This document shows, piece by piece, positions 41,888 to 62,927 of a stretch of DNA of 64,000 nucleotides. Every line of letters starts with the position of its first letter. The stretch's first letter is position 1. Source of the stretch: an uncultured Christensenellaceae bacterium (lineage in GTDB: Bacteria; Bacillota; Clostridia; Christensenellales; UBA3700). The stretch is taken from assembly GCA_910588015.1 (NCBI GenBank), contig CAJUOK010000003.1:79742-143741 (forward strand), written 5' to 3'. The notes beneath the pieces were generated by a model. It worked only from the letters and a program-made list of their open reading frames with translations, searched no databases and was not told the origin of the DNA. The position numbers and the translations under genes are program-made.

Positions 41888-41890
41888 GCT

Positions 41891-42656: not shown

Positions 42657-42672
42657 TTTACATCTCCCATCG

Positions 42673-42883: not shown

Positions 42884-42884
42884 A

Positions 42885-42900
42885 GTTCGGTGTACTGAAC
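42885..42900. promoter_or_regulatory. Operator O3 GTTCGGTGTACTGAAC, just downstream of the -10 element
   Basis: Same half-sites as O1 and O2. Confidence 0.6.
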
Positions 42901-42917
42901 CATATAGGAGATTAATT

Positions 42918-44153: not shown

Positions 44154-44187
44154 TCACCGCAAAACGGAATTATATGACAAGTTAAAA

Positions 44188-44204
44188 GCGACCCAGGTGG
44201 TCGC
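44188..44204. terminator. Bidirectional terminator between convergent genes
   Basis: GCGACC-CAGGT-GGTCGC with T-runs on both strands. Confidence 0.75.
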
Positions 44205-44292
44205 TTTCTTTTTCCTATTATGCGGCTATAAAGCAGTTGGAGAATTACGAAACCCACCATTGCTATAGTAGAATTTTAGGTTTACATTACAT

Positions 44293-44892: not shown

Positions 44893-44919
44893 ATTTTTTA
44901 GCTGACCACTCGCTTTTAA

Positions 44920-47700: not shown

Positions 47701-47710
47701 TTAACTCCTA

Positions 47711-49096: not shown

Positions 49097-49108
49097 CAAT
49101 TCTTACCA

Positions 49109-51643
49109 TTAACCTTTTTTAACAAGTTTCATTCTGCCAACTGTATTGTCCGCAATATCGAAGTCGTACCCTTCCACCGCTTTTTTAATTTGCTCTTTTA
49201 CCTTCTTTGCATTGTCATAGAAATACTCATAAAGCAAAGGTATGATTGCATTGTTCATTATTTCGCATAAATCATCCTTTGTCTTTCCAATAAAGTATGC
49301 ATGTCCTATAAGCAAATCTGTGCTATCCAAGGCTTCTACCAAACCTTTATTCAGCCTTTCCAATACTGTTTTTAAAGTCGTATCTGCCACGGTTGAATAA
49401 TCGGGTGTAATTTCTATGAATTGGAACCGCCTTCTCAACGCAGCATCTATCAAAGAAATTGACTTGTCTGCGCTATTCATCGTTCCTATAATGTAAAGGT
49501 TGTTGGGAACAGCAAACGACTCACCCGAAGGAAGCGTAACACTTATTGCGTTGACTTCGCCCCATCTTTTGTCATCTTCTATGAGCGTGATTAATTCACC
49601 GAAAACTTTAGAGATATTTGCCCTATTAATTTCGTCTATGATTATTACGTAGTCGTTTGTCTCATCCATCATAGCTTTATCTGCTATGCGTTTGAACACT
49701 CCGTCTATGGTTTTAAACTCCATTTTTTCAGACGAGGTATCGGGGCGCAAGCCTTGTATGAATTCCTCATATCCATAGCTTTGATGGAATGTCGTAAACA
49801 CAATTTGCCCAGTCTTTATCAACTCTTTATAACGGCTCATCAATGCCGCCCTTTCTTCCGCTGATTTTTGAGCTGTGTCTATCTCTCTATCCTCAATTAT
49901 TGCTAACGCATATTCAGCAGTCGAGTATGTTTTACCAGTGCCGGGCGCACCATACAGAATGCTATTCAACGGATGGGTTTTATTTGCCCTCGGCGCTCTA
50001 TCAATTAAGACATACTTCTCTTTACTATTCTCCTGCTCATCTAACTCAACTACTCTATTGTGGAGAATATCGAAAATAACGGACTTATATTCGTTTAACG
50101 AGAAAATAGAACGGGTCGCATAGAAGGCTTTATGCAAGTCGTGCGGAAGGTCTTGATATGCAACATCCTTCAGCCACTTCACATTTTTATTATGCGCATA
50201 GTCTGCATCTTGATTTGGAGTCTCCTGGGTAAAATAATATTCCGAAGTAATTTGACCTATATGCGCAGACTTTCCATCTCCAAAAACGACATAATCACCA
50301 ACTTTGAGCTTATCCAAAAAACTCCAAATTTGACTTACATCTTGTCCACGTCCACGGGTCGTTTTTTCGGGATACTTCTCATCATAAAGCACACCCAATT
50401 CTTCTTTGGATGCAATATGGCTTAAATCACCAAGGATACCCCACCCAATGCAGATATGCGGATTAGTTGGATTTAAAGCATCATTCAAATTGGTTATGTG
50501 CAACCCCATTACATTGTGTTCTAGGATTTCATAGAATTCATCACCTTTGGAGTTTGCACCCTCACCATTTTCAAAGACTGTATGGTTTGTATCGCTGAAC
50601 GGAACTCTAATCATATCTCCCTCCATAGCTTTTTCTTTATCGATTACTTGCGAAATATAGTCAAACATTAACTCGCCTAGTCGCTCATTATGCAAATAAA
50701 AATAGGCAGCAACCAAACGGTCAAGGGTAATAAACGGAGCAAAACACCCAAACGGAATATCGCTTACATATTCTTTTAAGGAGTTCTTCGGTGCTTCACT
50801 TATTCCAAAGCAATGATTATATAGTGTTTTAATCAGCGCAGTTGGCGTTGCTTTATAAACTTCAACCTTTGGAAAGATTTCAAACAATCCTTTCCGTATA
50901 TCACAGAGATAATTGTAAAAATCTGCGTTCTGCCGTGGAGAACCTCCCATAATAGGGGCTGCACTCATTCCCTTTCCGTTTTCAGCAATATAATTTATGA
51001 AATTGATGTGTTTCGGGATATACCTTAATATTGACTTCTTCTCACCAAACTGAAATATCGGTGTATCATTGAGACAGTTAAATAAGCTACTTAAATATAC
51101 CGCCCCACTTTCAATCTTAACCCGTGTCTTTGGAACTGTTGAGTCGACATCGTATATTCTTTCGCCAACCAGTCTAGTGACCAAATTATCCGTTAATTCA
51201 TCGTAACTTTCCAAAGGCGAAAGGTATTCATAGCATTCCGCACATGTGATAAACCTTTCGGATTCATCGATATTTAGCTTTGCCATTTTTGAAAAGACAA
51301 TAGATAAAAGCACTACAGGTTTAAGGTTTATTGCTTCATCCCTTGTTGTATTGCGTTTTGCAATTATCTCTAAAACAAATTCACTGTAATCGAAAAGTCC
51401 TAGTCTATACAGCAAAGCAGAATCACTCAATTGCCCATTGGGTCCAATGATACCGACATTGCGGGCAAAGGTTATCCTTGAACTCGCATTTCCGTCTAAT
51501 GGAAAAAAGGATTTGATTGCTGAACCGTCAACCTCTTTCCCAGACTTTTTAATTTTCGATACTACCCCGATAAATTCGTCCACAAAGTTTTTTGTTATGT
51601 AGAACCTATTGTCGAGATACCATGCATATTGGTAGTTTCGCAT
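49109..51643 (-). CDS. mcrB: McrB-like AAA+ GTPase subunit with a long (about 540 aa) N-terminal region of unknown specificity
   Basis: GAPGTGKT, IIIDEINRAN, GTMNSADKS and RRRF motifs in the C-terminal 300 aa. Confidence 0.8.
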   Translation of the reverse strand: MRNYQYAWYLDNRFYITKNFVDEFIGVVSKIKKSGKEVDGSAIKSFFPLDGNASSRITFARNVGIIGPNGQLSDSALLYRLGLFDYSEFVLEIIAKRNTTRDEAINLKPVVLLSIVFSKMAKLNIDESERFITCAECYEYLSPLESYDELTDNLVTRLVGERIYDVDSTVPKTRVKIESGAVYLSSLFNCLNDTPIFQFGEKKSILRYIPKHINFINYIAENGKGMSAAPIMGGSPRQNADFYNYLCDIRKGLFEIFPKVEVYKATPTALIKTLYNHCFGISEAPKNSLKEYVSDIPFGCFAPFITLDRLVAAYFYLHNERLGELMFDYISQVIDKEKAMEGDMIRVPFSDTNHTVFENGEGANSKGDEFYEILEHNVMGLHITNLNDALNPTNPHICIGWGILGDLSHIASKEELGVLYDEKYPEKTTRGRGQDVSQIWSFLDKLKVGDYVVFGDGKSAHIGQITSEYYFTQETPNQDADYAHNKNVKWLKDVAYQDLPHDLHKAFYATRSIFSLNEYKSVIFDILHNRVVELDEQENSKEKYVLIDRAPRANKTHPLNSILYGAPGTGKTYSTAEYALAIIEDREIDTAQKSAEERAALMSRYKELIKTGQIVFTTFHQSYGYEEFIQGLRPDTSSEKMEFKTIDGVFKRIADKAMMDETNDYVIIIDEINRANISKVFGELITLIEDDKRWGEVNAISVTLPSGESFAVPNNLYIIGTMNSADKSISLIDAALRRRFQFIEITPDYSTVADTTLKTVLERLNKGLVEALDSTDLLIGHAYFIGKTKDDLCEIMNNAIIPLLYEYFYDNAKKVKEQIKKAVEGYDFDIADNTVGRMKLVKKG

Positions 51644-51645
51644 TG

Positions 51646-52737
51646 TCAGTCTCCCAATTTTACATATTTCAAAATTTGCAAAATCAATGCCTTAAGTACA
51701 GGCACTGCGATTGAATTGCCCGACTGCCTATACATAATTCTGTCTTCATTGACAATTTTAAAGTCTTTAAATCCCATAAGCCTTAAGCACTCATCGGGTG
51801 TAAGTTTCCTTGCAACTGCATCCTCACCATTATACTTTCCAACATAAATATTAGGGTTTGTATAATGGGACGGCTTCGGCTTTTCAATTCTAAAATCTCC
51901 AGACCAGTTAATTTGCTGCACCGCCGTTTGACATCCAATAATGTCCCTATTTACTCTAGCTTTCCCTTGGTTACGTTCCCACTCCGTTACCCACTTGAAT
52001 CCTTTTTCAGGAAGATAATATTCATCGGGAACATCTGCATCCAAATAAGCAGTTGCTTTTTTCGACAGAGGTTTTCTTTCTGGAAATTCAAAGCTAGTTA
52101 TTCCTAACTCTTTTCTAATGCCAACCACAAATATCCTCTTGCGCATTTGCGGTAAATCATAATACTGTGCATCAAGTACCTTGTAAAAAATTTGATAGTT
52201 TAACGAATCGAAAACCTCACTGATAGTTTTCCATGTGCGACCAGAATCGTGACTCAACAAGCCTCTAACATTTTCGTAGATGAATACCTTTGGCTTTATT
52301 TCACTTACAAGCCTTGCGTATTCGTAAAACAATGTACCTCTCGTATCTTCCAACCCACGCTTTTTCCCATAGGTTGAAAAACTTTGACAAGGGCTGCCGC
52401 CAACGAATAAATCTACTTTACCCGCATAAGGAATACCGCTTAAAAACCGAACATCCTCGTACCAATTATCCTCGGTTATTTTATAGTTGGCGAAATAAGA
52501 CTTCTTTACGTAGTTGATTTTTCCCGTTTGGTCGTACAGTTCTTCTATAACCTGTTTTTGAGTTTTCCCAGTTTTCTTGCTTTCATTTTTGATAATGTCA
52601 AGCAACTCCTCTTGAGACTGCTTTAAATATCTCTCGCCGTTATCACACGCAAACACGATATTGTGTTCCAGTCCAAGCTGTTTGAATGCTTGTTCAACAG
52701 CCCCAATCCCACTAAAAGCCGTAGCTAATTTTATCAT
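51646..52737 (-). CDS. DNA (cytosine-5)-methyltransferase
   Basis: FSGIG, GGSPCQSFS, ENV and QMRKRIFVVG motifs; C-terminal RKLTPDECLRLMGF and GNSIAVP. Confidence 0.9.
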   Translation of the reverse strand: MIKLATAFSGIGAVEQAFKQLGLEHNIVFACDNGERYLKQSQEELLDIIKNESKKTGKTQKQVIEELYDQTGKINYVKKSYFANYKITEDNWYEDVRFLSGIPYAGKVDLFVGGSPCQSFSTYGKKRGLEDTRGTLFYEYARLVSEIKPKVFIYENVRGLLSHDSGRTWKTISEVFDSLNYQIFYKVLDAQYYDLPQMRKRIFVVGIRKELGITSFEFPERKPLSKKATAYLDADVPDEYYLPEKGFKWVTEWERNQGKARVNRDIIGCQTAVQQINWSGDFRIEKPKPSHYTNPNIYVGKYNGEDAVARKLTPDECLRLMGFKDFKIVNEDRIMYRQSGNSIAVPVLKALILQILKYVKLGD

Positions 52738-52931
52738 TTCGTCTCCTCAAATTCAATACCTTTTTCTCGACAGAAGGCTTCGAACTTTTTTTCCGATATA
52801 AATTGTGGGTCTATACCTTGCGTTTCCCATCTTGCAACGGTAACTTGGGACACCCCTATTTCCTTGGCTAGCTTCTCTTGACTGAGGAACAGCTTCGCTC
52901 GAACTATCTTTACCTTATCAGCAAATGTCAT
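52734..52931 (-). CDS. XRE-type HTH protein (R-M controller-like)
   Basis: LSQEKLAKEIGVSQVTVARWE; ATGA overlap with the methyltransferase gene. Confidence 0.65.
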   Translation of the reverse strand: MTFADKVKIVRAKLFLSQEKLAKEIGVSQVTVARWETQGIDPQFISEKKFEAFCREKGIEFEETK

Positions 52932-52961
52932 TTAATATACCTCGATGTCATTGTATATCGT

Positions 52962-52990
52962 ATTATATCATTTTTTGAGTTAGGAGTCAA
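52962..52990 (-). promoter_or_regulatory. Promoter TTGACT-N17-TATAAT of the six-gene operon, followed by an ATATAC-N12-GTATAT inverted repeat
   Basis: Minus strand TTGACTcctaactcaaaaaatgaTATAAT. Confidence 0.75.
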
Positions 52991-53025
52991 CCGAAAGCTG
53001 AACGAAAAGGTTAGTGTGACTGCGA

Positions 53026-53451
53026 TTATTCACTCAAAAATCCGTAATCAAACTCCAAGAGGTAATCGTAAGGGAGAGCTTTTCGGATTTCATTATACAA
53101 GTCCACTAGGTCCTGGCTGTGTTCTTCCATCACAACGCCAATCGAAACTTCGTCTTCGGTTTTTATCGTGAGCCGGTCAGGTTCAGCATCGGCAACGAAA
53201 TCATCATAGCACTGCTTGATTTGTTCTATCACCTTTTCAGCATTAGAAATAAAGGCGTTGGCTTGCTCGGGTGTGATGCGGTATCGAATTTTTCGCATCG
53301 TCTTATACTCCCACATTTGTCCCGTTTTCAGACCATAGGTCGTAAACCACACCATTCCATTTGCCTTGATTGTAAGCCTCTGCCTTTCCTCTTTGTCAGG
53401 CTCAAATGGACGATACCCGCCCTTTGATTTTTCGATTACAAGCGTTGTCAT
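53026..53451 (-). CDS. Hypothetical protein (141 aa), fourth gene of the WYL operon
   Basis: ATGA overlap with the upstream gene; no recognisable motif. Confidence 0.5.
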   Translation of the reverse strand: MTTLVIEKSKGGYRPFEPDKEERQRLTIKANGMVWFTTYGLKTGQMWEYKTMRKIRYRITPEQANAFISNAEKVIEQIKQCYDDFVADAEPDRLTIKTEDEVSIGVVMEEHSQDLVDLYNEIRKALPYDYLLEFDYGFLSE

Positions 53452-53762
53452 TTTAGCTTAATGGTTATGGTTCTATCTTTCAAATATCCACCACCGTTCT
53501 TGTAGTCCTTAAGCGAAATCCAACCCTCAACCGGAACTTGTTCAAGCGGGTTCTTACTATCACGATAATAAGCCTGATTGTGTGGTGTAAGTTTTACTTC
53601 GACACTTTCAAAGCTATCCGTGGTAGCAAGTTTGAAAAGCTCATCCATTCCAACGGGGCCTTCGCCAGTGTACGGTTCATATTGCTTGTTCACTCCCAGA
53701 ACTTTCGATTCGAGCTTTACCGCAACTGGATGTTCAATGGGATTGTAAAATAATTTTTTCAA
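53448..53762 (-). CDS. Hypothetical protein (104 aa), third gene of the WYL operon
   Basis: TTG start with GGAGG at 9 nt. Confidence 0.5.
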   Translation of the reverse strand: MKKLFYNPIEHPVAVKLESKVLGVNKQYEPYTGEGPVGMDELFKLATTDSFESVEVKLTPHNQAYYRDSKNPLEQVPVEGWISLKDYKNGGGYLKDRTITIKLK

Positions 53763-53798
53763 TTTATAATTCCTCCGTATTTAGTTTATTTTCGAGAA

Positions 53799-54563
53799 TT
53801 AGTGCCTCCAATTAGCAAACGGCAGTTGATTATATTTTGTTTCAAAGTCATTTAATAGGGCGCTCTCCATTTCCTTTGGGTTATCGCACGGCAAATACCA
53901 CACTTCCAAATCTTCAAAATGTTGGATTTGCGCAATACTTCGTCCACCCCAGGCTGAGATAGGTTTACCGTTCCAAAATTCGATATGTTGTTGCATACGC
54001 TTTTCAACACTGCCTTCGCTTTTACCCAAATATAAAATATCTGCTTGGACGAGCAATTTCTGTTTTAATTTCTCAATATTTACAGTAGGGTCTTTTCCCT
54101 TGTACTTCCCTGCATTACTGGTTTGATTAAGAAGAATGTCTTGCATTTTTTCTGGACGCACAATAATGTAAATACCCTTAAAGTTGCCTCTGTCACTATC
54201 CAACTTTCCTATCGTTCCAGCATACTCAAATTGCTTATTCAAAAACATTCTCTTACTAATTTGATTGAGCATTACTATCTCTTTTTCTTCATGACCGACC
54301 AATTCTTCGATATAGTTATTGCCAAACGGCTTACCGCAATGCGGACAGATGTTGACGGTATAAACGTCATCGTTTGGATACAATACCGTTTTTATGACCA
54401 CTCCGTTTTCGGCAGCAACTGCTTTTTCTTTTTCCAAAAAGTTGCCAGGCGAAACTACACACTGCTTTTCGTTCCTCTCCCATTTTCCATAGGCTGCCTT
54501 GAATTCCTTTTTACAATTCCAGCAGATAGCTTTGCAAATGTAGAGCGTTCTTTTAGCACTCAT
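53799..54563 (-). CDS. Zinc-ribbon plus GIY-YIG-like nuclease-domain protein
   Basis: CWNC...CPHC N-terminal ribbon. KGIYIIV...ILYLGKSEGSVEKRMQQH...E...N resembles GIY-YIG with a long insert between GIY and YLG. Confidence 0.5.
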   Translation of the reverse strand: MSAKRTLYICKAICWNCKKEFKAAYGKWERNEKQCVVSPGNFLEKEKAVAAENGVVIKTVLYPNDDVYTVNICPHCGKPFGNNYIEELVGHEEKEIVMLNQISKRMFLNKQFEYAGTIGKLDSDRGNFKGIYIIVRPEKMQDILLNQTSNAGKYKGKDPTVNIEKLKQKLLVQADILYLGKSEGSVEKRMQQHIEFWNGKPISAWGGRSIAQIQHFEDLEVWYLPCDNPKEMESALLNDFETKYNQLPFANWRH

Positions 54564-54571
54564 ATACTCAC

Positions 54572-55579
54572 CTATCCTTCGTAGTTTCTCATCGATGCTT
54601 TTATGCGCTCTTTGAGTTCATCAATTACTGACTGTGGTGATGTAACTTTAAGGCTCTCACCAAAACCGATAACCCAAGCCAAGAACGGACTGCTCACTTG
54701 CACATCTACGGCAAACGATATCGTATCGGCATCGTGTTCATAGATTTTTACGCTTTCACCAAACTTGTCGAACACGGCATCCACTATACCCTTCTCGCCT
54801 ATTAAATGCACTCGCTCGGTCTTTCCACGGTACATACCCACAAGGCTTCTTTGGTGCTTTGAAAGGTCAAAATCTGATGCTTCCTTGTTTGGTGTTATTT
54901 CGTCATCAAGCATCTTCACTTGCTCCATTCGGTCAACTCGATACTGCACTATATTGCCGTGGTAATCATTATAGCAGAATAAGTAGTATTTATCATCGTG
55001 AAAAACAGTCGCAACGGGGTTTACGATATACCACCGCTGTTCGTCTGGCTTCGATGTGCGCATACGATACTTCCGCTTGTGATGAAGGTCGTAGTCAAAA
55101 TAATAAAAGCCAATCTTCCGCTTTTCGATAATGGCTTGGGAGATTTCATTCACGGAATAATAAATGCTTTCGTTGCTTCCTTTTACCGTTCCAAACTGCA
55201 CGATGTTACTCTTCAAAACCTCTGCCCTTTGACTGCCAGCGAGTTGTGCAATCTTGTCTATAAGAACCGGGGTTTTCTTATCGGTGATGAAACTCGCAGC
55301 CTGAACCGCATCCATAAGGATTTGAATTTCTGGTATATCGAAGCTACGGTCTTCAACATAATATCCGTTGCTCTTTCCCTTCTTCACGAGTATCTCATAG
55401 CCGTTTACGTTCAATTCTTCGATGTTTCGATAGAGCGTTCTACGATCACAACTGATGCCACACGCTTCAAGTCTCGCAATAAGGTCGTGGGTACTCATTG
55501 GATGTTGCTCATCAGTTTCTTGACGAAGAATATCCCATATCTTCAAGTATTTAATTTTGGATACGCTCTCTGCTTTCAT
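54572..55579 (-). CDS. WYL-domain transcriptional regulator (HTH-WYL-WCX architecture, BrxR/CapW-like)
   Basis: N-terminal wHTH (YLKIWDILRQ...HPMSTHDLI..L); central YYFDY...RWYIVNPVA..F.DDKYYLFCY WYL-like core. Confidence 0.75.
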   Translation of the reverse strand: MKAESVSKIKYLKIWDILRQETDEQHPMSTHDLIARLEACGISCDRRTLYRNIEELNVNGYEILVKKGKSNGYYVEDRSFDIPEIQILMDAVQAASFITDKKTPVLIDKIAQLAGSQRAEVLKSNIVQFGTVKGSNESIYYSVNEISQAIIEKRKIGFYYFDYDLHHKRKYRMRTSKPDEQRWYIVNPVATVFHDDKYYLFCYNDYHGNIVQYRVDRMEQVKMLDDEITPNKEASDFDLSKHQRSLVGMYRGKTERVHLIGEKGIVDAVFDKFGESVKIYEHDADTISFAVDVQVSSPFLAWVIGFGESLKVTSPQSVIDELKERIKASMRNYEG

Positions 55580-55606
55580 AGTCTGTCTCCCATTATGGAC
55601 TTCTAG

Positions 55607-55636
55607 ATTATATCACAATCCTCACCCCTTTGTCTA
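55607..55636 (-). promoter_or_regulatory. Promoter of the WYL operon (TAGACA-N18-TGaTATAAT, extended -10), bracketed by CTAGA/TCTAG half-sites
   Basis: Read on the minus strand upstream of the GGGAGA RBS. Confidence 0.6.
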
Positions 55637-55767
55637 GTTTTACTGTCGCAAAAGTATGACACAAAATAACAAAATAAAACCGCCATGATTAGGATTCTAA
55701 AATTTGCCCCGCACGGACTACCAGTCCGTTCGAACCCATCACCACAACGGTATTATTGAAAAATTAT

Positions 55768-55790
55768 TGCGCATAAAATTTTAGCGCATT
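55768..55790. repeat. Inverted exact copy of the 23-nt palindrome at 25604-25626
   Basis: TGCGCATAAAATTTTAGCGCATT. Confidence 0.9.
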
Positions 55791-55801
55791 TCGCAATTTA
55801 A

Positions 55802-56001
55802 TTTAGACTTTTCATAGGTCATAAAAACCCCAAATTTAGACTTTTCATAGAATGCACTTTCAACTCTAACCCCCATTTAGGGTTGTATCCTTTGCGGCAG
55901 TGAGTGTTTATCCTTGTTCCTATGAAAAGTCTAACCCCCTAAAAATGCCCATATTTTGGGCAAAAATGCCCCATTTTAGCCATATTTTGGGTTAGACTTT
56001 T
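55802..56001. repeat. Junction repeat array. TTTAGACTTTTCATAG occurs twice in direct orientation, once inverted and once as a partial copy. Duplicated AAAAATGCCC / CCATATTTTGGG blocks are also present.
   Basis: Copies at 55802-55817 and 55835-55850, inverted at 55920-55934, partial at 55992-56001 overlapping the capsid stop codon. Confidence 0.85.
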
Positions 56002-57043
56002 ATCGCTCAAACAATCTCCAATCGCAAAGCTGATGCAACTTAAAGTCCTTGCTGTTGAGCAAATACATAGTTCCCGATTCGACGAATCTGTCGGCAACAA
56101 GCGGGATGCCGTTGTAAGACAGCGCCTTGAAACCTCCGTCGAGATTCATAAAATCAACATTGGTTCTCGTCAACGCAAGATAGTCGAGATAAGCTCTCCT
56201 CACGTCGTAAGAGCATACTATAAAGTCGATTTGAGAACCTGCCACTTCGTCGATATAGTCTATCGCGCTTTGAATCTTCGCCGTGGAAATCGCTCCCACG
56301 TTGTCATAACGCTTGGGCGAAAGCCAACTTCTGCCCGCTCTCGAAAGTCCGTAAAGGTCTTTGTCCGAAAAAATAGCGCCAAGTCCCGTCAGCTCGTTTT
56401 CTTTGGAGCCTTGCACCGTCACCGTATCTCCCTCTTCAATCTTCGTCGTAGCAGTCGCCGAAACCGTCACGGTGTTGTTTACTCTGTCGACGCTAGTTAT
56501 TCTCACGCCCTTAAAGTCGGGATAAAGAGAACCCGTCTTAGAATAAACGTCCACGACCATACCTTCCATAACGTTGCGAACGCTGTCGAGAGCAATGACG
56601 TTGCTTGCCGAGCTTTGCTCTTTGCAAGTTGCCAAAACGCCGCTGCCGTCGCCGTAAAGCATTCTGCCGAGATTGAATTTGGAAGCTTTGAGCAAACCTT
56701 CCATCTCTGCGTTGAGAAGATTGACGAAGGCTCCCGTGTTGGACTGCGACGCTCTGATAGCTTTGTCCGAAAGCTCTATCGTGCCGTAAAGATTCTTGAG
56801 TTCGAGTTTGAATCTATCGTAATTATTAGCCGCAGGCGAAGGCAGTTCGCCAGTCTCTGTGCCCGCGCCGATACCGCCGTTGAGACCGTAAGGCACAAGT
56901 TTGATTATCTCCTTGCCCCACACGTCTCCCGTCGTCTGTTCAATCTTGGCAAGAAGCGGATTGACGCCCACGTTGAGTTGGTCTGCCACTACGTTTAAAT
57001 ATACGCTCTTAAGCGCTTTTTCTGCTGTTTCTAACGTTACCAT
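56000..57043 (-). CDS. Major capsid protein of the second phage, possibly truncated at the 3' end
   Basis: Follows the scaffold gene. Ends ...FKLHQLCDW-RLFER directly at the repeat array. Confidence 0.7.
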   Translation of the reverse strand: MVTLETAEKALKSVYLNVVADQLNVGVNPLLAKIEQTTGDVWGKEIIKLVPYGLNGGIGAGTETGELPSPAANNYDRFKLELKNLYGTIELSDKAIRASQSNTGAFVNLLNAEMEGLLKASKFNLGRMLYGDGSGVLATCKEQSSASNVIALDSVRNVMEGMVVDVYSKTGSLYPDFKGVRITSVDRVNNTVTVSATATTKIEEGDTVTVQGSKENELTGLGAIFSDKDLYGLSRAGRSWLSPKRYDNVGAISTAKIQSAIDYIDEVAGSQIDFIVCSYDVRRAYLDYLALTRTNVDFMNLDGGFKALSYNGIPLVADRFVESGTMYLLNSKDFKLHQLCDWRLFER

Positions 57044-57639
57044 TATATCCTCCTATTGTCGAGCATAGCCTTGATTACGCTGCCCGCCTCGGCTATGCTC
57101 TTGGGTCTGCTAGGCGGTGTAAGCGCAGTTCGTCCCCTTGACGAAATGGATTTCGGGGGAAGATTTTGCTGTAAGCCGTCAAGATATTCTTGTATTATTT
57201 TATCTTTGACGGCATTATTCTCATAGATGTATTTTTGCAAGAACTCTTCGTCGCCGGCAAGTTTTTCGGGAGATACGTAAGCCGTCGCAAGCACGGCGGC
57301 AAGCGCTTTTTCCAAACAGTCACCGTCTTGTTGAAGCGATTGGTTCTGCGCTATCTCGCTGCCTATCTGCGCCGAAAATTGCTTTGCAATAGGATACCTT
57401 TGCAAAAAATCCGTCACTTTGTCTTTCCAACCGACCTGCGCAAATACGGGCACACTCTCATTCTCGGAAGCGACGTCTTCGTCCTTCCCTTCTTCTGCGT
57501 CATCTGCGCCGCCGTCGATTAAATTGACTTCTGTATTGTCAAAATCTTCTCCGCTATCAATTTCGCGGGGTATATTCTCAAGCTCGGTCGGCATTGCCGA
57601 CTCGCCGTCGAAATCTTCAGTTTGTCGATACGGTTGCAT
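57043..57639 (-). CDS. Scaffolding protein
   Basis: Start at MQPYRQ (GGAGGAG RBS). Acidic, helical, between portal and capsid. Confidence 0.6.
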   Translation of the reverse strand: MQPYRQTEDFDGESAMPTELENIPREIDSGEDFDNTEVNLIDGGADDAEEGKDEDVASENESVPVFAQVGWKDKVTDFLQRYPIAKQFSAQIGSEIAQNQSLQQDGDCLEKALAAVLATAYVSPEKLAGDEEFLQKYIYENNAVKDKIIQEYLDGLQQNLPPKSISSRGRTALTPPSRPKSIAEAGSVIKAMLDNRRI

Positions 57640-59488
57640 TGTTTTCTCCTCCGACCGCCGACGTATCCGCAACGGTCTTCATCATTTTATGTCTCTTGAT
57701 ATGTTCGTCAATCAAATCTATTACGCTTTGGTCTTTTTCTTCAAGCAAATGTTTGAGATGTTCGTCGATATGCAAGGTATGGTCGTCGTAATCGGCGACG
57801 TCTATTTCCTCTTTGCCGAAATCTAAATTTTCCTTCATAGCTTTTTTGCGATGACTTTCGTCGACGTCTTTGCTCGACTCCCAATTGCCGAATCCCAATA
57901 TCTCCAAAATCTTCAGCTTATTGCGATTGGAAACATAGCCGTTGCCGTCGTTGAATATACCCATACGCACAAGCTCCAACACCATATTACGTTTGTTTTC
58001 CAACGTGTCGGTGAGTTCGTTTTCATTGTCGAAAACAAGGTCGTCGCTTTGCAAGTCGCTGGCGGTAAAATACGCAAGCTCGACTTCGCCGTTGTCTCCC
58101 GAGAATTTTTTCATACGCTTGGTAACACAAAACTGTCTGTAAAGACGAAGCATCTGTTCGCAAATTCTTTTGATACCCATACGCAACGACGTCGTGGCAA
58201 TCGACAGTCTCGTGTCGTCCTGCTCTACCAACATACCTATTGCCTTACCCGACATTTGATTGAGCACGTTGGAATATTTGCTCAACTCGCTCACGCCCGA
58301 TATCGTTGTGAATTCAGAAAGTATCCTGTCTTCTTCGTATTGAAAATCCACGGGAACTCTGCCGCTCTCAAGCAATTTCGGAGGCGTCGAACCCTGTCGG
58401 TATATCAAGACCTTGCCGGGAGACAGACCGTCTTCTTCGAGTTCGTCGGTGTCTATCGAACCGTCCTCCACGCTCAACACTCCCATAGAAATTCTGTTGA
58501 TGAATTCGTGCTTGCGGTTCTTGACGGCGTTGTAAGCCCTCTGCAGCGGAATAAGCCGCTCTATTATACTCGAGCCGTAAAAACAGCCCAATTTTTCCAA
58601 ACAAACAATCTTGGTAAACGGATAACCGCGACATTCGTTGACTGCGTTGATATAGGGCAATTCGCCGTGATACAACAGTCTGTCGCCCGCGACTATGCTC
58701 AATTCTCCGTTGGGCTTTTGCGCGGTGGGACGGGAATATTTTTCGATGACGACGCACATATCGTGAGCCACGCCGTCAAAGGCGTTGCGCGCGCCGCCCG
58801 TCTGAAAGACTCCGCCCGCGCCGTCAAGAGAAAACACGTTGACGTCCTCTCCTTTTACGTCAACTCCCCATATATCTTTTATTTCGTCGACGTGATACGC
58901 TTTTGCGTGTATGATACTCATACAGTCGTCGATATTGACCGTGCCGAGGCTGTCGGGAAAGAGCTCGTACGGCGGAACTACGGAAATGTCAACGTCGCCC
59001 TCTCTCACCGCGCCCGTCTTGCTTTGCCCTATGACTTTGCCTTTTTCGCCCGACCACACCGTCTTGAAAAAACAACTGCCCGTAACTTCGCTCCAACTGC
59101 TGGCTTCGTTGAGCAATCGCGGTATTTGATTCTCTTCGCAAAGAGCTTTGACAATCTGCGTCGAGAGTTTTGCGGTCTGCACGTCGCTGTCGTCGTTGCT
59201 GAACGGACGTACGCTTATGGCGCATTTAAGCCTGTTGAGCTTGGACAGTCTTGTCTCGATTATCGACGCGATATGATTGTATACTTCCCTTTCCTGCCAA
59301 TAATACTGCTTGCCGTATTGCTCGATATCGCCCACGGGCGTAATCTCCGAATACTGCTCGCCGTTGTAGAAATTCATATTCAGCCGCCATTGCAATTCCA
59401 GTTGTTTTCTCTCGGCTCTGCGTCTTTCGAAATCCTTGCGTACCTGTTTGACAATATCCTCGCAAAATTCGCTTTTAAACTTGTTCAT
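57617..59488 (-). CDS. Portal protein (second phage)
   Basis: 623 aa downstream of TerL; AAGGAG RBS. Confidence 0.75.
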   Translation of the reverse strand: MNKFKSEFCEDIVKQVRKDFERRRAERKQLELQWRLNMNFYNGEQYSEITPVGDIEQYGKQYYWQEREVYNHIASIIETRLSKLNRLKCAISVRPFSNDDSDVQTAKLSTQIVKALCEENQIPRLLNEASSWSEVTGSCFFKTVWSGEKGKVIGQSKTGAVREGDVDISVVPPYELFPDSLGTVNIDDCMSIIHAKAYHVDEIKDIWGVDVKGEDVNVFSLDGAGGVFQTGGARNAFDGVAHDMCVVIEKYSRPTAQKPNGELSIVAGDRLLYHGELPYINAVNECRGYPFTKIVCLEKLGCFYGSSIIERLIPLQRAYNAVKNRKHEFINRISMGVLSVEDGSIDTDELEEDGLSPGKVLIYRQGSTPPKLLESGRVPVDFQYEEDRILSEFTTISGVSELSKYSNVLNQMSGKAIGMLVEQDDTRLSIATTSLRMGIKRICEQMLRLYRQFCVTKRMKKFSGDNGEVELAYFTASDLQSDDLVFDNENELTDTLENKRNMVLELVRMGIFNDGNGYVSNRNKLKILEILGFGNWESSKDVDESHRKKAMKENLDFGKEEIDVADYDDHTLHIDEHLKHLLEEKDQSVIDLIDEHIKRHKMMKTVADTSAVGGENNATVSTN

Positions 59489-59699
59489 AAATTACGCTCC
59501 TTTTTCTCTTTTTGCATTTTTTGCCGCAGTCGCGCTCAAGCTGACTTCCCACGGCAAGATATATCTTACGCGCGCAATCTTTGCACAGATGGATATATCC
59601 GTCGGCATTTACGCCGTCGGGTATCAGCGAATAAAGCGCAAGGTTGCGGCAGTTTCCCGCGTCGCATTTAACTTTGTTGGTCTGAATTGTTATCTTCAT
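59475..59699 (-). CDS. Small Cys-rich basic protein
   Basis: C..GNC...LCKDC; AAGGAGA RBS. Confidence 0.5.
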   Translation of the reverse strand: MKITIQTNKVKCDAGNCRNLALYSLIPDGVNADGYIHLCKDCARKIYLAVGSQLERDCGKKCKKRKRSVIYEQV

Positions 59700-59979
59700 A
59701 CTTTTCTCCTTTTTGAATGTCGCCGAGTTTTTTCAGCAATTTGATTTTGAGTTTTTCAAGTTCTACGTCGCTCAAATCGGATAAATCGTTTTCTCTTCCT
59801 TCGAGTTCGAGCGCCGCTTTGAGAGCCGCCAAATCGGGCGGTATTTGCTTGATGCTTATTTTGCGCTTGATGAGTTGGTCGTCCGCGCTGTATTCCTCCA
59901 CAACTTCGCGCGCCTCATATCCTATGGCTTTTCGCAATATAGCGCGCCGTAGGTCTTGGTTTTGCAATTCGCCTTTCAT
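59668..59979 (-). CDS. Hypothetical coiled-coil protein
   Basis: 103 aa; AAGGAG RBS. Confidence 0.45.
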   Translation of the reverse strand: MKGELQNQDLRRAILRKAIGYEAREVVEEYSADDQLIKRKISIKQIPPDLAALKAALELEGRENDLSDLSDVELEKLKIKLLKKLGDIQKGEKYEDNNSDQQS

Positions 59980-59988
59980 ATCGCTCCT

Positions 59989-61407
59989 TCAAACATTTTG
60001 CCTGCGCCTGATAAGTTTTCGTTTGTCCTTTTGAATTTCGCTTTGCGGCGAGGACGGCAATTTTGCAGGCTGAGGTTTTGACGAAATATAATATCTCAAC
60101 GCGTCAAGCGCGTGGTCGTCTTTTTTTATAGGTCTGTCGCCCTTGCCCCACCAATAACTTTTGAGCTCTCTAATTAGGTTTACGCAGGTGGAAAATATCT
60201 TTATCTTTCCTTCGGCAAAATAACTTTTGACTCGCGCAATCCCACCGAAGAGTTGCTTATCGACGTTGGTATTTACCAATATGCCTCTCTCGTAAAAGAG
60301 TTCGCTGACGCTTTTTCTAGAAGCAAGAGTATGCTGGTCCGCCGCGCTGTCTATCAAAGCCGTCAATCTGCCTTTGGAATCGGTGTGCCAATTGAGTTTG
60401 CGCGCAAGTTCTTTTATTTGCTCCGAATGGTAATCTATATCTTTGCCCGCCATATACCATTCCCCGACAACGTAGATATTGCCGTCGTAATCAGAAGCGA
60501 AAAACAGACAGGCAAGCGGATTGTTGAGTCCCGGGTCTATGGAAATATTGTCTTGCCAATCAAATGGCACGTCAAAAGGCTCAATCACGTCTCTGGCGAT
60601 GTCGAATTCTTTATAGACTATACCCTCAGCCTCGCAGAACCTGCCGAAACGGCGGGAAGAGAGCGTCTTTTCATCCATATTCGCAGACAGACTCGCGACC
60701 TCTTTTTCGTCCAAGAAGGGATTGTCAGCCCATTCTACGTGCTGATGCCACACTTCTTTGTCGTCGGACGAATTGAGATATATTTCGTCGTATACCCAAG
60801 TTAGACCTTTGAGAGGAGTCATAGTTCCCCATATGTCTCCCACTCTGTCGATAATTCGCATACGGCATTCGTCGTAGACGTCCTTGGGCGGCTCTTCGTC
60901 AAACCAAACGAAATCCAGCGAAGCTCCCTGAAATTTTTCTCTGCCTTGGTCGCAACTTTTAAAAGACACTTTGGAGGTTCCGCCCAACACGTTTTTTACA
61001 AGAACGTAATCTATAACGCCGTACTCGGCAGACCCTTTTTTGCCTGAAAGCATAACTATGTCGGCTATCCAATCGGGATTGAGATAGGACAAAAATTTGC
61101 TTTGCGCAACGTCTCTTTGCACTTCGTAAGACAACGACACTATCCATCCCGACACGTTGTTGCGATTTTGCCTGTAGGGATGAATTCCTCTTGCCCACCA
61201 TACCGCTTCCACTGCTCCGCACTCGGTTTTTCCCGAACGGTTGCCGCCGAACACCCATCTGTTGCGCTTTTGACACTTGTGAAATTCAAGCTGCTTTTTA
61301 TGCACTTTCTCGCCTGTGTTATACCTCGAGAGCCTGTCGTTTGCCTTGCGCCTGTTTTGCTCTTTTTCTATGGCGAGCAATGCAAAAATTATTTCTTTTT
61401 CTTCCAT
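59989..61407 (-). CDS. terL: Terminase large subunit (second phage)
   Basis: Walker A GGNRSGKT; Walker B LDFVWFDEE; C-terminal nuclease-like region; 472 aa. No terS is visible upstream. Confidence 0.8.
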   Translation of the reverse strand: MEEKEIIFALLAIEKEQNRRKANDRLSRYNTGEKVHKKQLEFHKCQKRNRWVFGGNRSGKTECGAVEAVWWARGIHPYRQNRNNVSGWIVSLSYEVQRDVAQSKFLSYLNPDWIADIVMLSGKKGSAEYGVIDYVLVKNVLGGTSKVSFKSCDQGREKFQGASLDFVWFDEEPPKDVYDECRMRIIDRVGDIWGTMTPLKGLTWVYDEIYLNSSDDKEVWHQHVEWADNPFLDEKEVASLSANMDEKTLSSRRFGRFCEAEGIVYKEFDIARDVIEPFDVPFDWQDNISIDPGLNNPLACLFFASDYDGNIYVVGEWYMAGKDIDYHSEQIKELARKLNWHTDSKGRLTALIDSAADQHTLASRKSVSELFYERGILVNTNVDKQLFGGIARVKSYFAEGKIKIFSTCVNLIRELKSYWWGKGDRPIKKDDHALDALRYYISSKPQPAKLPSSPQSEIQKDKRKLIRRRQNV

Positions 61408-61509
61408 AATTCGTCAATTTATCCGTATATTTTTTTGATTTATTGCCGCAATAGTATTGTAAAAATCTTATAAATGCAATATAATTGAATTATACTTTTA
61501 GAGGTCCGT

Positions 61510-62325
61510 ATGAAAAAATTAATAATTCTTACAATGCTACTTATGATTTTGAGCGTATGCGCGCTGTCTGCGGGCGTATGTTTTGCCGACGAGACTTCGA
61601 CTTATTATTACGTCGAAAAAGACAAAGAACTCACAGTATATATATCGCCGCAGAGAACAAGCGGCATAGCGTTGCAAATCCCCGCTACTTACGCTTTTAA
61701 ATACATCAAAGACGAAAACGGCGATTTCGCGGCGATAGAATACAACGGCTGTCAAGGTTACGTCTTGCTCAACGACTTCAACGTAATGTGTAAAAAAGTC
61801 GACGCCAAGTGGGGCGAAAATCCTTATGAATATACTTTCAAAGCCCAAGACTTCGATAAGTTCAAGTCTGAAAATATCGTCGCTTATACATATAACGGCA
61901 ACAGCCTTTCCGCTGTCAACAATCCCACTCCGTCGAATCTTATAACTATCAAAAACGTCTACGGATATTTCAAAGACGGCAACCAAACGTATATCCTCGT
62001 GGACATCGCGCTAAACGTAGGCATAGGCTATGAAATGCTCAAACATTATATCAAAGCCGACGATATTCAAGGCGCTTTGGAACTTGTCAACGGCATTCCG
62101 CAAAGCGCGGGATATATTGCCCAGACAACCCCGGACAAGCCGACCGTTCCCAGCGGAGACTCAAATTCGGGAGACAACAATACTCCCAACGTCGGCGACA
62201 ATAACTCGGATACGCAGACCCCAAAAAATTCTTTGGACAGATATATTATGATTGCCGTAATTGCCGTACTGTGCGTCGTCATAATAATACTAATTTTTGC
62301 TCCGACGAAAAAAAGACAAGGTTGA
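61510..62325 (+). CDS. Secreted protein with a C-terminal membrane anchor and a low-complexity linker
   Basis: Signal peptide MKKLIILTMLLMILSVCALSAGVCFA; C-terminal TM IMIAVIAVLCVVIIILIF. Confidence 0.55.
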   Translation: MKKLIILTMLLMILSVCALSAGVCFADETSTYYYVEKDKELTVYISPQRTSGIALQIPATYAFKYIKDENGDFAAIEYNGCQGYVLLNDFNVMCKKVDAKWGENPYEYTFKAQDFDKFKSENIVAYTYNGNSLSAVNNPTPSNLITIKNVYGYFKDGNQTYILVDIALNVGIGYEMLKHYIKADDIQGALELVNGIPQSAGYIAQTTPDKPTVPSGDSNSGDNNTPNVGDNNSDTQTPKNSLDRYIMIAVIAVLCVVIIILIFAPTKKRQG

Positions 62326-62363
62326 TTTAAACTTCCGTCGGCTCTCCGTTATGGGGAGCCGAT

Positions 62364-62927
62364 TTACATTGACGCAACTCCGCTCGCGCCGTCGGCGCTA
62401 AAACTCATATACCCGTCGCGCAAATTCAATCTGTCGGCAAACTTAACTTTTTTGTCTTCAACGGCTTGGCTTTTGTCTTTAAGTTGGCAATATCTGATAC
62501 CTTTGACAAAAACAGGGTCTTCTGCGTAACGCTTGTCCAACCATTTTTCGTCATAACCTTTTATAATGCAATAACTTGAGAACTGCTTCAACGCGATTTC
62601 GTGCCATCTGAACACGCTTCGCAAGCATATATTCAAGGCGTCAGCGATTTCTTCAAAGCTTTTACGCTGTAAATACCTCAACTCCAAAACTCTTCTGCTG
62701 TTTGGTTTCAACGCGCCGAGAGCGTTGTCAACTATGACTTTTGCGTTTATCAACAGTTCTTTGCGAGCGTTGTTCGCCATCATTTTGTTCATCAAATCCA
62801 ACGCGTTGCCTTGATAAGAAAAACTGCCGAGCGCTATTTGCATATTGCTTCTGTCAATGCACTTGACCACAAGCGGCAAAGCGTTGTAAGTCGCCAGCAA
62901 ACTCTTTGACCATAAATCTTGATGCAT
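62364..62927 (-). CDS. Sigma-70 region-4-like HTH regulator
   Basis: RRVLELRYLQRKSFEEIADALNICLRSVFRWH; GGGAGG RBS. Confidence 0.6.
   Translation of the reverse strand: MHQDLWSKSLLATYNALPLVVKCIDRSNMQIALGSFSYQGNALDLMNKMMANNARKELLINAKVIVDNALGALKPNSRRVLELRYLQRKSFEEIADALNICLRSVFRWHEIALKQFSSYCIIKGYDEKWLDKRYAEDPVFVKGIRYCQLKDKSQAVEDKKVKFADRLNLRDGYMSFSADGASGVASM

What the first reader, a model, noticed from the sequence alone, without database searches (positions are those of the whole stretch)
55760..56020. Repeat-rich junction where a capsid gene of a second phage ends abruptly: a possible element-in-prophage insertion
Seen in sequence: the second phage module (terL to capsid, 61407 down to 56000) stops at ...FKLHQLCDW-RLFER-TAA. 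No connector, tail or lysis genes follow. The stop codon overlaps a partial copy of a 16-nt motif (TTTAGACTTTTCATAG) that occurs twice directly and once inverted within the next 200 bp. Duplicated AAAAATGCCC and CCATATTTTGGG blocks are also present. Codon and CG-dinucleotide usage change sharply at 56.0 kb. Inference: the 56-kb unit to the left (prophage plus island) may have integrated into the capsid gene of a resident prophage, and the repeats may be recombinase arm sites. From my memory of related capsid proteins, they continue a few tens of residues beyond the LHQLCDW motif, but I cannot verify this here.
Basis: partly seen in the sequence, partly recalled or inferred. Interest (0 to 1): 0.65.

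Follow-up and report, generated by a model that had tools for sequence, protein, structure and literature searches.

The report
Prophage inserted in GTA-like capsid gene
A temperate phage more than 56 kb long has cut the capsid gene of an old, chromosomally fixed phage-like gene cluster in a gut Christensenellaceae bacterium, and related phages hit the same cluster at three precise sites, so this looks like targeted, probably reversible, gene disruption and not decay.

Summary
The capsid ORF (56000-57043, minus strand) stops 46 codons early. Of its 120 closest homologues, 108 are 382-397 aa, and the motif repeats exceed chance.

1. The "second phage" is not an ordinary prophage. It is half of a ~12-kb phage-like cluster (sigma-like regulator, terL, portal, scaffold, capsid, five structural ORFs, holins). 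The cluster sits next to gyrA-GH95 in at least 11 Christensenellaceae species. Its dN/dS is 0.03-0.1 and its CpG signature matches the host flank, so it is a GTA-like candidate.

2. The recombinases are probably tandem large serine recombinases (LSRs), which lie just off the window's left edge in every close relative. They are not an arm-site tyrosine integrase.

Five capsid sublineages are cut at the same nucleotide, yet four are 99.7-100% identical to intact alleles. A related phage shows the reciprocal junction: LSRs, 140 nt, then capsid codons 344-389. Related phages also use a second capsid site and a terL site.

The motif copy over the stop codon is the phage-side half-site. The three other copies are unexplained. 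The window's own left junction was not seen.

The parts
56016..57043 (-). 5' part (codons 1-343) of the major capsid gene of the resident phage-like cluster. The called ORF is 56000-57043 (347 aa) and ends in four phage-derived codons (LFER) plus a stop.
   Evidence: PHROG major head protein, E = 1.7e-55, covering profile positions 4-349 of 396. 89-92% identical to 389-390-aa homologues, with 46 C-terminal residues missing. Full-length 26-29% matches to the capsid proteins of isolated actinophages.
56016..56017 (-). Inferred crossover dinucleotide: AG on the minus strand, the first two bases of the Arg343 codon.
   Evidence: Intact ...GATTGG AG ATGGCTCGAGGG; window ...GATTGG AG ATTGTTTGAGCGATAA; L001 ...GATTGG AG TTTGTACGAGCCATAA. 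The reciprocal junction in L106 reads ...GGTTAAT CG GTGGCTGGAAGGG. The position is inferred by comparison and was not tested biochemically.
55989..56015 (-). Phage-side (P') half-site: ATTGTTTGAGCGAT followed by the outer motif AAAAGTCTAACCC. It supplies the codons LFER and the stop.
   Evidence: Conserved next to the breakpoint in L001-L006 and L011. The same outer motif, AAAAGTCTAAC, lies 12-23 nt from the crossover in the site-2 phage. It mirrors TCAGACCTTT, 14-23 nt from the crossover, in the P arm of L105-L107.
55803..55934 (.). Three further full copies of the motif TTAGACTTTTCATAG: 55803-55817 and 55836-55850 direct, 55920-55934 inverted. Their role is unknown.
   Evidence: 3 matches against 0.18 expected. 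All copies are conserved in L001 and L003.
55676..56015 (-). Conserved attachment-site-proximal arm of the prophage (about 340 bp).
   Evidence: Homologous in L001-L003 up to window position 55676, where the cargo diverges.
55706..55737 (-). Conserved stem-loop followed by GTGCGGGGCAAATTTTAGAA, upstream of the WYL gene.
   Evidence: Present in L001 and L003 and in the site-2 phages L194-L196, with a compensatory stem change. No Rfam family matches.
54572..55579 (-). WYL-domain regulator, the first gene of the prophage at this end. A promoter-like site lies at 55636-55607.
   Evidence: Pfam WYL, WCX and HTH_11. PADLOC WYL. 91% identical in L003 and 61% in the site-2 phages, at the same position. 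Promoter scan.
44920..52737 (-). Defence cargo: a UvrD/GajB-like helicase with topoisomerase zinc ribbons, McrC, an AAA_5 McrB-like protein and a C5 cytosine methyltransferase.
1..56015 (-). The inserted temperate siphovirus-type prophage, incomplete at the window's left edge. It holds a PAPS-reductase-like gene, holin, tail, tape measure, HK97-type capsid, portal, TerL, methylases, a replication module, a LexA-like repressor with UmuC/YolD, defence cargo and WYL.
   Evidence: No recombinase in the window. Window 1-3476 is 80-84% identical to L025, L026 and L120-L122, which continue directly into tandem large serine recombinases.
57043..62927 (-). Upstream half of the resident cluster, all ORFs intact: scaffold-like 57043-57672, P22-like portal 57617-59488, small ORFs 59475-59979, terL 59989-61407, 271-aa ORF 61510-62325 (+ strand), sigma-70 region-4-like regulator 62364-62927.
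   Evidence: Colinear with L007-L021.
63303..64000 (+). Host GH95 glycoside hydrolase gene, which flanks the cluster in every genome where that flank is visible.
   Evidence: tblastn, 81% identity to the L007 GH95. The gyrA-GH95 flank appears.

Best explanation
The junction at 56015/56016 is a B-O-P' hybrid attachment site. A temperate siphovirus-type phage of more than 56 kb integrated, most likely by its tandem large serine recombinases (LSRs), into codon 343 of the major capsid gene of a resident phage-derived cluster. That cluster is ~12 kb, vertically inherited and a GTA-like candidate in a Christensenellaceae bacterium.

Integration splits the gene. The 5' 343 codons are fused to four phage codons and a stop. 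The 46 highly conserved C-terminal codons and the downstream structural and holin genes are displaced beyond the far end of the prophage, outside the window. No replacement sequence is supplied, so the cluster cannot make a complete capsid protein while the prophage is resident. Excision would restore the gene exactly.

The motif copy over the stop codon is the outer part of the P' half-site.

Shown: the truncation, the recurrence at one nucleotide, presence/absence polymorphism, the conserved phage end, and the fixed, selected nature of the cluster.
Inferred from relatives: the recombinase type, the reciprocal junction, and reversibility.
For: Truncation and recurrence
- Capsid truncated at codon 343, whereas 108 of 120 homologues are 382-397 aa.
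- Same breakpoint in five sublineages that are only 85-90% identical to each other. Four of them have intact alleles that are 99.7-100% identical: P0007 = P0016, P0052 = P0056/57/71, P0014 ~ P0019, P0024 ~ P0028. The window's own sublineage (window, P0001) has none closer than 92%.
- The DNA after the breakpoint is homologous in all of them.

Recombinases and reciprocal junction
- Relatives of the window's left end (80-84% nt identity over window 1-3476) continue directly into LSRs with Resolvase, Recombinase and Zn_ribbon_recom domains.
- L106 carries SR-A, SR-B, 140 nt, then capsid codons 344-389. The junction is at the same base of the Arg343 codon.

Other sites in the same cluster
- Site 2 was reconstructed in full from attB, attL and attR with a CT crossover. 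Two LSRs lie next to the capsid 3' end.
- The terL site was verified against the intact attB.

Nature of the resident cluster
- Same order and same gyrA-GH95 flank in L001-2, L007-L021 and L194-5.
- dN/dS is 0.03-0.10 for terL, portal and capsid, with dS of about 1-2, like the flanking GH95.
- CpG observed/expected equals the host flank and differs from the insert.

The junction is not an assembly artefact. It is present in the window and in three independent runs (L001-L003).
Against: - The window's own left end is not visible. The capsid remainder is absent from the window, and no contig with the window's leftmost protein is on record.
- The closest relatives with downstream sequence (L120, L121) carry a third LSR and then other genes, with no capsid remainder within 10 kb. 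The element could therefore be longer, or composite.
- The reciprocal junction comes from a phage whose SR-B is only 68% identical to that of the window's relatives.
- No recombination assay exists. The crossover dinucleotide and half-site assignment are comparative inferences.
- That the cluster is a working GTA is not shown. The AlphaFold model of the capsid was too poor to place the missing tail.
Confidence: 0.8

Rival explanations
1. Decay, not insertion. The terL-to-capsid module is the stump of a dying prophage whose right half was deleted, and the neighbouring 56 kb merely abuts it.
For: No capsid remainder, connector, tail or lysis genes of that module are in the window.
Against: - The breakpoint is the same nucleotide in five diverged sublineages, four of which have 99.7-100% identical intact alleles.
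- The sequence beyond the breakpoint is shared.
- A reciprocal junction exists.
- The upstream cluster genes are all intact.
- The cluster is under purifying selection.
Confidence: 0.04
2. The insertion is real but was made by a tyrosine integrase using the repeated 15-16-nt motifs as arm-type sites, or by some other unseen recombinase.
For: There are four motif copies within 200 bp, conserved in relatives. Large serine recombinases are not known to need extra sites.
Against: - No tyrosine integrase or any other recombinase is in the 64 kb.
- Every close relative of the phage's far end carries 2-3 LSRs there.
- At site 2 and in L106 the LSR genes lie 140-840 nt from the junction.
- At the fully reconstructed site 2, attB, attL and attR share only a short core around a 2-nt crossover. 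At site 1, no extended identity continues past the crossover between the phage end and the intact capsid sequence.
Confidence: 0.07
3. The insertion is real, but the resident cluster is just an ordinary cryptic prophage remnant with no present function. On this reading the capsid gene is a neutral landing pad and nothing is regulated.
For: - No direct evidence of particle production from this locus.
- terL is called as two ORFs in some genomes.
- An integrase lies next to the cluster in L007 and L014.
Against: - Same locus and gene order across at least 11 species.
- dS is saturated while dN/dS is 0.03-0.10, comparable with the host GH95.
- CpG signature matches the host.
- GTA-like packaging of Christensenellaceae DNA has been observed in faecal particles (PMC12946183), though it is not linked to this locus.
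Confidence: 0.2
4. Assembly chimera at a repeat.
For: Several related contigs end within tens of bases of the junction (L004-L006, L011, L105).
Against: - The same junction is assembled independently in L001, L002 and L003.
- L003 reads through into the WYL gene.
- Contig breaks at the junction are what strain-level presence/absence polymorphism produces.
Confidence: 0.02

Closest known systems
Helper-embedded PICIs (HE-PICIs; Tommasini, Mageeney & Williams 2023, PMC10111431)
   Same: - Mobile elements integrated inside phage late genes.
- The capsid gene is the commonest target, and terminase and portal genes are also used.
- Several precise sites are used by related integrases.
- attP carries no replacement sequence, so the late gene is off until excision.
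   Different: - HE-PICIs are small satellites with a tyrosine integrase and AlpA, embedded in an inducible helper prophage in Gram-negatives.
- Here the insert is a complete phage of more than 56 kb with its own head, tail and lysis genes.
- The recombinases are tandem LSRs.
- The host element is a fixed, non-mobile cluster in a Firmicute.
Regulated gene integrity / active lysogeny by serine-recombinase elements: SPbeta in spsM, skin in sigK, A118-type phages in comK (own knowledge; concept cited in PMC10111431 and PMC7192596)
   Same: - A large-serine-recombinase prophage splits a coding gene without replacing the lost part.
- Exact excision restores the gene.
- The window's phage also has a LexA-like repressor and a YolD/UmuC pair, as SPbeta does.
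   Different: - The target is a structural gene of a domesticated phage-like cluster, not a housekeeping or developmental gene.
- Three targets lie in one cluster.
- Regulated excision was not tested.
SCCmec CcrA/CcrB (own knowledge)
   Same: Two paralogous large serine recombinases are encoded side by side and used for one element's integration and excision.
   Different: - Here there are two or three paralogues, 30-52% identical to each other, in a phage.
- Whether they act together or give alternative target specificities is unknown.
Gene transfer agents and GTA-like elements: RcGTA, PBSX, and FpGTA of Faecalibacterium (PMC12946183)
   Same: - The resident cluster is a ~12-kb head/short-tail/holin operon with a TerS-like ORF, TerL, portal, scaffold and capsid.
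- It has no replication or lysogeny genes, is vertically inherited and is under purifying selection.
- Its architecture resembles the 10.5-kb podovirus-like FpGTA I.
   Different: - Packaging of random host DNA was not tested for this locus.
- Homology to the FpGTA proteins was not tested.
- No GTA has been reported, in the library searched, as a phage integration target.

Membership tests
Large-serine-recombinase prophage integration | The element encodes one or more recombinases with Resolvase, Recombinase and Zn-ribbon domains near one end. | tested here: inconclusive
   None is in the window. Seven relatives of the window's left end (L025, L026, L120-L122, L125, L126) continue straight into 2-3 such genes. 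The window stops about 10 nt short of where the first one begins in L025.
Large-serine-recombinase prophage integration | Hybrid junctions share only a 2-nt crossover with attB, with no long direct repeat and no duplication. | tested here: met
   Site 2 was fully reconstructed: attB AAGC[CT]ATTGG, attL AAGC[CT]TATGG, attR GAATA[CT]ATTGG. For site 1, the left junction (window, L001, L004, L011) and the right junction (L106) meet at the first two bases of the Arg343 codon.
Large-serine-recombinase prophage integration | attP is built of two imperfect inverted half-sites of about 20-25 bp. | tested here: inconclusive
   The P' outer motif AAAAGTCTAA at +15..+24 (window) mirrors TCAGACCTTT at -23..-14 (L106). 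However, the two arms come from different phages, because no single attP was recovered.
Large-serine-recombinase prophage integration | Both junctions of the same insertion are seen, and joining them restores the target. | not testable with these tools
   The window ends inside the element, and no contig extends it.
Regulated gene integrity / active lysogeny | Integration inactivates the target gene, with no replacement sequence in attP. | tested here: met
   The hybrid ORF ends after 4 (LFER/LYEP) or 12 foreign codons. The 46 lost residues include 21 invariant ones.
Regulated gene integrity / active lysogeny | Excision restores the gene and is timed by a cellular or phage programme. | not testable with these tools
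   The only evidence is population-level: intact and interrupted alleles are identical over codons 1-343.
HE-PICI | A satellite lacking most virion genes, with a tyrosine integrase of the HE-PICI clade plus AlpA. | tested here: not met
   The insert has a full TerL, portal, HK97 capsid, tail and holin set. No tyrosine integrase is present.
HE-PICI | [quoted passage not shown] | tested here: met
   Capsid codon 343 (window), a second capsid site, and terL.
Gene transfer agent (the resident cluster) | Head and tail genes only, with no replication, lysogeny or integration module. | tested here: met
   The gene content of L007-L021 is a sigma-like regulator, terL, portal, scaffold, capsid, structural ORFs and holins. 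The integrase next to it is present in only some genomes.
Gene transfer agent (the resident cluster) | Vertical inheritance at a fixed locus under purifying selection. | tested here: met
   The gyrA-GH95 flank is present wherever it is visible. dN/dS is 0.03-0.10 with dS of about 1-2. CpG signature matches the host.
Gene transfer agent (the resident cluster) | Particles package random host DNA in pieces shorter than the cluster. | not testable with these tools
   There is only a literature lead: GTA-like packaging was seen for Christensenellaceae MAGs, with the locus not identified (PMC12946183).

The most novel reading that the evidence does not exclude
A clade of temperate phages with two or three tandem large serine recombinases has evolved a tropism for the late genes of a Christensenellaceae gene transfer agent, using two capsid sites and one terL site. 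On this reading:
- Lysogeny switches the GTA off and excision switches it back on.
- The paralogous recombinases let one attP use alternative targets (capsid or terL), depending on which sequence the host offers.

This would be a phage-versus-GTA conflict, or a phage-timed GTA release, run by site-specific recombination.
Probability: 0.3. Interest if true: 0.8.

Novelty: new variant of a known kind. Interest (0 to 1): 0.6.

Why it matters
Gene disruption by serine-recombinase prophages and satellites embedded in prophage late genes are both known. A complete temperate phage that repeatedly targets the capsid and terminase genes of a domesticated, vertically inherited phage-like cluster did not turn up in the three literature searches aimed at this, or in the three papers consulted.

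If the cluster is the agent behind the GTA-like packaging reported for gut Christensenellaceae, three things follow:
- Lysogeny would control horizontal gene transfer in a heritable, health-associated gut family.
- The intact-versus-interrupted alleles would give a natural on/off pair to test GTA function.
- The pairs of one attP with two attB sites, and the tandem recombinases, are also of practical interest for integrase engineering.

Tried and rejected
- **tRNA or tmRNA target:** none in the window, although 55706-55737 looks T-arm-like by eye.
- **Rfam on 55300-56200:** nothing.
- **Capsid 3' remainder in the window:** absent.
- **Extending the window leftwards through its last ORF:** the protein is not on record.
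- **Exact search for the P' motif in IMG/VR:** no hit.
- **Recovering the other end of the L106 and L108 phage contigs:** the contigs start inside the phage, or the stored chunk does not reach the end.
- **Recovering a site-1 right junction in the Christensenella lineages through the 104-aa downstream protein:** only intact contexts were returned among the longest contigs.
- **L120 and L121, the closest phage relatives with downstream sequence:** a third recombinase and other genes, no capsid remainder.
- **AlphaFold2 of the full-length capsid:** mean pLDDT 61, below 50 over residues 334-370, so it was not used and no fold search was run.
- **A GACTTT/AAAGTC inverted repeat I noticed in the capsid attB:** rejected as a recognition element, because it is not conserved in other lineages that also carry the insertion.
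- **A TTAATCG match between the P arm and the L007 terL:** rejected, because it is out of register with the verified attB of L197-L202.
Full report
**1. Observation**

The region reads as described. TTAGACTTTTCATAG lies at 55803 and 55836 (direct) and at 55920-55934 (inverted). A partial copy, GGGTTAGACTTTT, spans 55989-56001 and overlaps the stop codon of the minus-strand ORF 56000-57043. With up to two mismatches, the 15-mer occurs three times in the window against 0.18 expected, and no shuffle of 100 reaches three. AAAAATGCCC and CCATATTTTGGG are each duplicated. GC rises from about 0.40 to 0.48-0.50 at 56.0 kb, and CpG observed/expected rises from 1.1-1.2 to 1.5-1.75. The ORF ends ...LHQLCDWR-LFER*.

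**2. The capsid is truncated**

The protein matches a PHROG major-head-protein profile over positions 4-349 of 396. Of its 120 closest database homologues, 108 are 382-397 aa and continue WLEGDNGKVIKQKAG..TY.ATLVKYADMICDKPIGQAKLSGIT. That tail holds 21 invariant residues among 26 homologues of 66-92% identity. Isolated actinophage capsid proteins align to residue 373-387. The 46 missing codons are nowhere in the window.

**3. The break is recurrent and polymorphic**

Five database proteins (P0001, P0007, P0014, P0024, P0052) end at the same place with LYEP*, or with LFER plus a read-through tail. Over residues 1-343 they are only 85-90% identical to each other. Yet four of them are 99.7-100% identical to full-length proteins of their own sublineage: P0007 = P0016, P0052 = P0056/57/71, P0014 ~ P0019, P0024 ~ P0028. 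At the DNA level, all interrupted copies diverge from the intact ones after ...GATTGG AG and then share a homologous sequence, (A/T)TTGT(TT/AC)GAGC(G/C)ATA(A/T)(A/G)AGTCTAACCC. Contigs L001-L003, from three sequencing runs, match the window at 98-99% from 64000 down to 55676, so the junction is not an assembly artefact.

**4. What the "second phage" is**

Contigs with the intact capsid show one arrangement: gyrA, a GH95 hydrolase, then a sigma-70-region-4-like regulator, a 270-aa ORF, terL, two small ORFs (one TerS-like), a P22-type portal, a scaffold-like ORF, the capsid, ORFs of 104, 183, 476, 124 and 333 aa (the last DUF7934), and two holin-like ORFs. Host genes follow. The same ~12-kb order recurs in species-representative genomes labelled Christensenella, Christensenellaceae or Clostridia, at 62-100% protein identity. 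The same left flank is present wherever it is visible. The cluster has no replication, repressor or integration module. A tyrosine integrase next to it occurs in only some genomes.

Pairwise dN/dS is 0.03-0.10 for terL, portal and capsid, and 0.06-0.3 for the rest. dS is about 1-2, like the flanking GH95. Its CpG signature equals that of the host flank.

This is therefore a vertically inherited, selected, phage-derived DNA-packaging cluster, a GTA-like candidate. GTA-like packaging of Christensenellaceae DNA in faecal particles has been reported. So has a 10.5-kb podovirus-like GTA operon in Faecalibacterium, but the Christensenellaceae locus was not identified there (PMC12946183). Packaging by this particular locus was not tested here.

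**5. What is inserted**

Everything from 56015 leftwards is transcribed in the capsid direction. In order, it contains:
- a WYL regulator (54572-55579);
- small ORFs;
- a C5 methyltransferase, an McrBC-like pair and a UvrD/GajB-like helicase (44.9-52.7 kb);
- a LexA-like repressor with UmuC and YolD;
- a replication module (DUF2800 nuclease, AAA_24, helicase, primase/AAA_25, RusA);
- methylases;
- TerL, portal, an HK97-type capsid, tape measure, Dit, a tail protein, a holin and a PAPS-reductase-like gene at 161-994.

No recombinase of any kind is in the window. Window 1-3476 is 80-84% identical to viral and metagenomic contigs. In these, the PAPS-reductase-like gene is followed at once by two, and in L120/L121 three, large serine recombinases with Resolvase, Recombinase and zinc-ribbon domains. 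The window stops about 10 nt before the first.

The "island" is part of the phage. L003 has the same arm and a 91% identical WYL protein, but 6 kb of different cargo between them. The site-2 phage (section 7) has a 61% identical WYL gene at the same position, followed by other defence genes.

**6. Reciprocal junction**

In L106, a related phage (SR-B 68% identical) has SR-A, SR-B and a 140-nt arm ending ...TCAGACCTTTCGACGGTTAAT CG. It then runs G TGG CTG GAA GGG..., which is the third base of the Arg343 codon followed by capsid codons 344-389. The host there uses CGG for Arg343, and the window's host uses AGA. The inferred crossover dinucleotide is the first two bases of that codon in both.

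The P-arm outer motif TCAGACCTTT, 14-23 nt from the crossover, mirrors the window's AAAAGTCTAA at 15-24 nt. This is the geometry expected of serine-integrase half-sites (own knowledge of A118- and phiC31-type sites). The two arms come from different phages, so this is an inference.

**7. Two further targets in the same cluster**

*Site 2.* Proteins P0015 and P0019-21 have a foreign tail after ...MICDKP. L194-L196 show capsid, junction, then WYL and defence genes. L013 shows a phage end with two serine recombinases (519 and 534 aa) and a Tag glycosylase, then the last 11 capsid codons. The three sites fit a CT crossover: attB AAGC[CT]ATTGGACAGG, attL AAGC[CT]TATGGACGGGCAAAAAGTCTAAC, attR GGGCGAATA[CT]ATTGGACAGG.

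*terL.* In L105, L107 and L124, the same phage end as in L106 is joined to a terL Pro codon about two-thirds into the gene. That phage end differs from L106 by 3 nt in 4.1 kb that include both recombinase genes. The junction was checked against the intact gene in L197-L202: attB ...GTTATCGATC[CG]TTTCCCGTCCCG, junction ...CGACGGTTAAT[CG]TTTCCCGTCCCG. How one attP serves two dissimilar attB sites is unexplained.

More distant recombinase relatives (54%) sit next to a transporter-like gene, so the tropism is not universal.

**8. Mechanism proposed**

The phage integrates by serine-recombinase crossover at a 2-nt core inside the capsid gene. No replacement coding sequence is carried, so the lysogen makes a capsid protein lacking its conserved C-terminus. 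The downstream structural and holin genes are separated from their operon by more than 56 kb. Excision, which for serine integrases needs a directionality factor (own knowledge), would rebuild the gene exactly. This fits the identical intact alleles found in the population.

Whether the disruption benefits the phage, the host or neither is open. The phage might gain by removing a competing packaging machine. The host or GTA might gain if GTA release is coupled to induction. Or the gene may simply be a conserved, dispensable landing site.

The three extra motif copies, conserved in L001/L003, have no assigned role. Duplicated half-site-like copies also occur in the site-2 and L105-7 phages.

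**9. Comparison and novelty**

The nearest described phenomenon is the helper-embedded PICI: tyrosine-integrase satellites at 14 sites in prophage late genes, most often the capsid gene (PMC10111431). The nearest mechanism is regulated gene integrity by serine-recombinase prophages such as SPbeta in spsM and skin in sigK (own knowledge). This case differs in three ways:
- the insert is a complete phage;
- the recombinases are tandem serine recombinases;
- the target is a fixed, domesticated cluster.

Three full-text searches aimed at this, and the three papers consulted, turned up no report of a phage using a GTA-like element's structural genes as attB. I rate it a new variant of a known kind.

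**10. Limits**

- The left junction of this particular insertion was not seen.
- The recombinase assignment rests on relatives.
- The crossover and half-sites are comparative inferences.
- GTA activity of the cluster is untested.
- The structure prediction was too weak to use.

Noticed in passing
window 55706-55737 (minus-strand sense); L001 about 8490-8533; L194 about 11430-11474: A conserved stem-loop followed by GTGCGGGGCAAATTTTAGAA lies about 120 nt upstream of the WYL gene. It is shared by site-1 and site-2 phages, with a compensatory stem change (CGGAC/GTCCG versus CGAAC/GTTCG). No Rfam family matches. It could be an operator or a barrier to read-through from the capsid operon.
   Followed up: partly
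window 55676-55679; L003 2741-8696: This is a cargo hotspot. A close relative carries 6 kb inserted exactly here, between the attachment arm and the WYL gene. The inserted ORFs are 1077 aa, 341 aa (with an Alpha_L_fucos Pfam hit) and 484 aa.
   Followed up: partly
L105, L106, L107, L124 (phage ends); L197-L202 (intact terL): Nearly identical recombinase genes and P arm (3 nt differences in 4.1 kb) are joined to the capsid gene in one contig and to terL in three others. That is one attP with two dissimilar attB sites in the same cluster.
   Followed up: yes
L013 8659-8720; L194 11130-11210: There is a second integration site 11 codons before the capsid stop, used by a phage with a DGR-type Mtd tail fibre and two serine recombinases. 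Its P half-site is duplicated (GTAGACAAAGGACAGGGCGAA, twice).
   Followed up: yes
window 44920-52737: The defence cargo is a 926-aa UvrD/GajB-like helicase with C-terminal topoisomerase zinc ribbons, McrC, an 844-aa AAA_5 McrB-like protein and a C5 methyltransferase. The ORFs at 42855-44153 (+ strand, 432 aa) and 44293-44892 have no family hit.
   Followed up: partly
window 38174-40373: A LexA-like S24 peptidase repressor lies next to a UmuC-like (impB) gene and a YolD-like gene. This arrangement is known from SPbeta, which also uses a serine recombinase.
   Followed up: no
L018 3229-4733; L198-L202: The cluster's terL is called as two ORFs (about 188 + 298 aa, or two overlapping pieces) in several genomes. 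This could be a frameshift, a programmed shift or a real split; it was not resolved.
   Followed up: no
L120 7947-15313: The closest relatives of the window's phage carry a third serine recombinase. Further on the opposite strand are an HTH gene, DUF6551 and two more Resolvase-domain ORFs. This may be a second element in tandem.
   Followed up: partly
window 19770-24209: The prophage carries an 803-aa protein with C5-methylase domains, a ParB-N/N6_N4 methylase fusion and a protein with a SAM-synthetase N-terminal domain. These are likely anti-restriction or self-protection functions.
   Followed up: no
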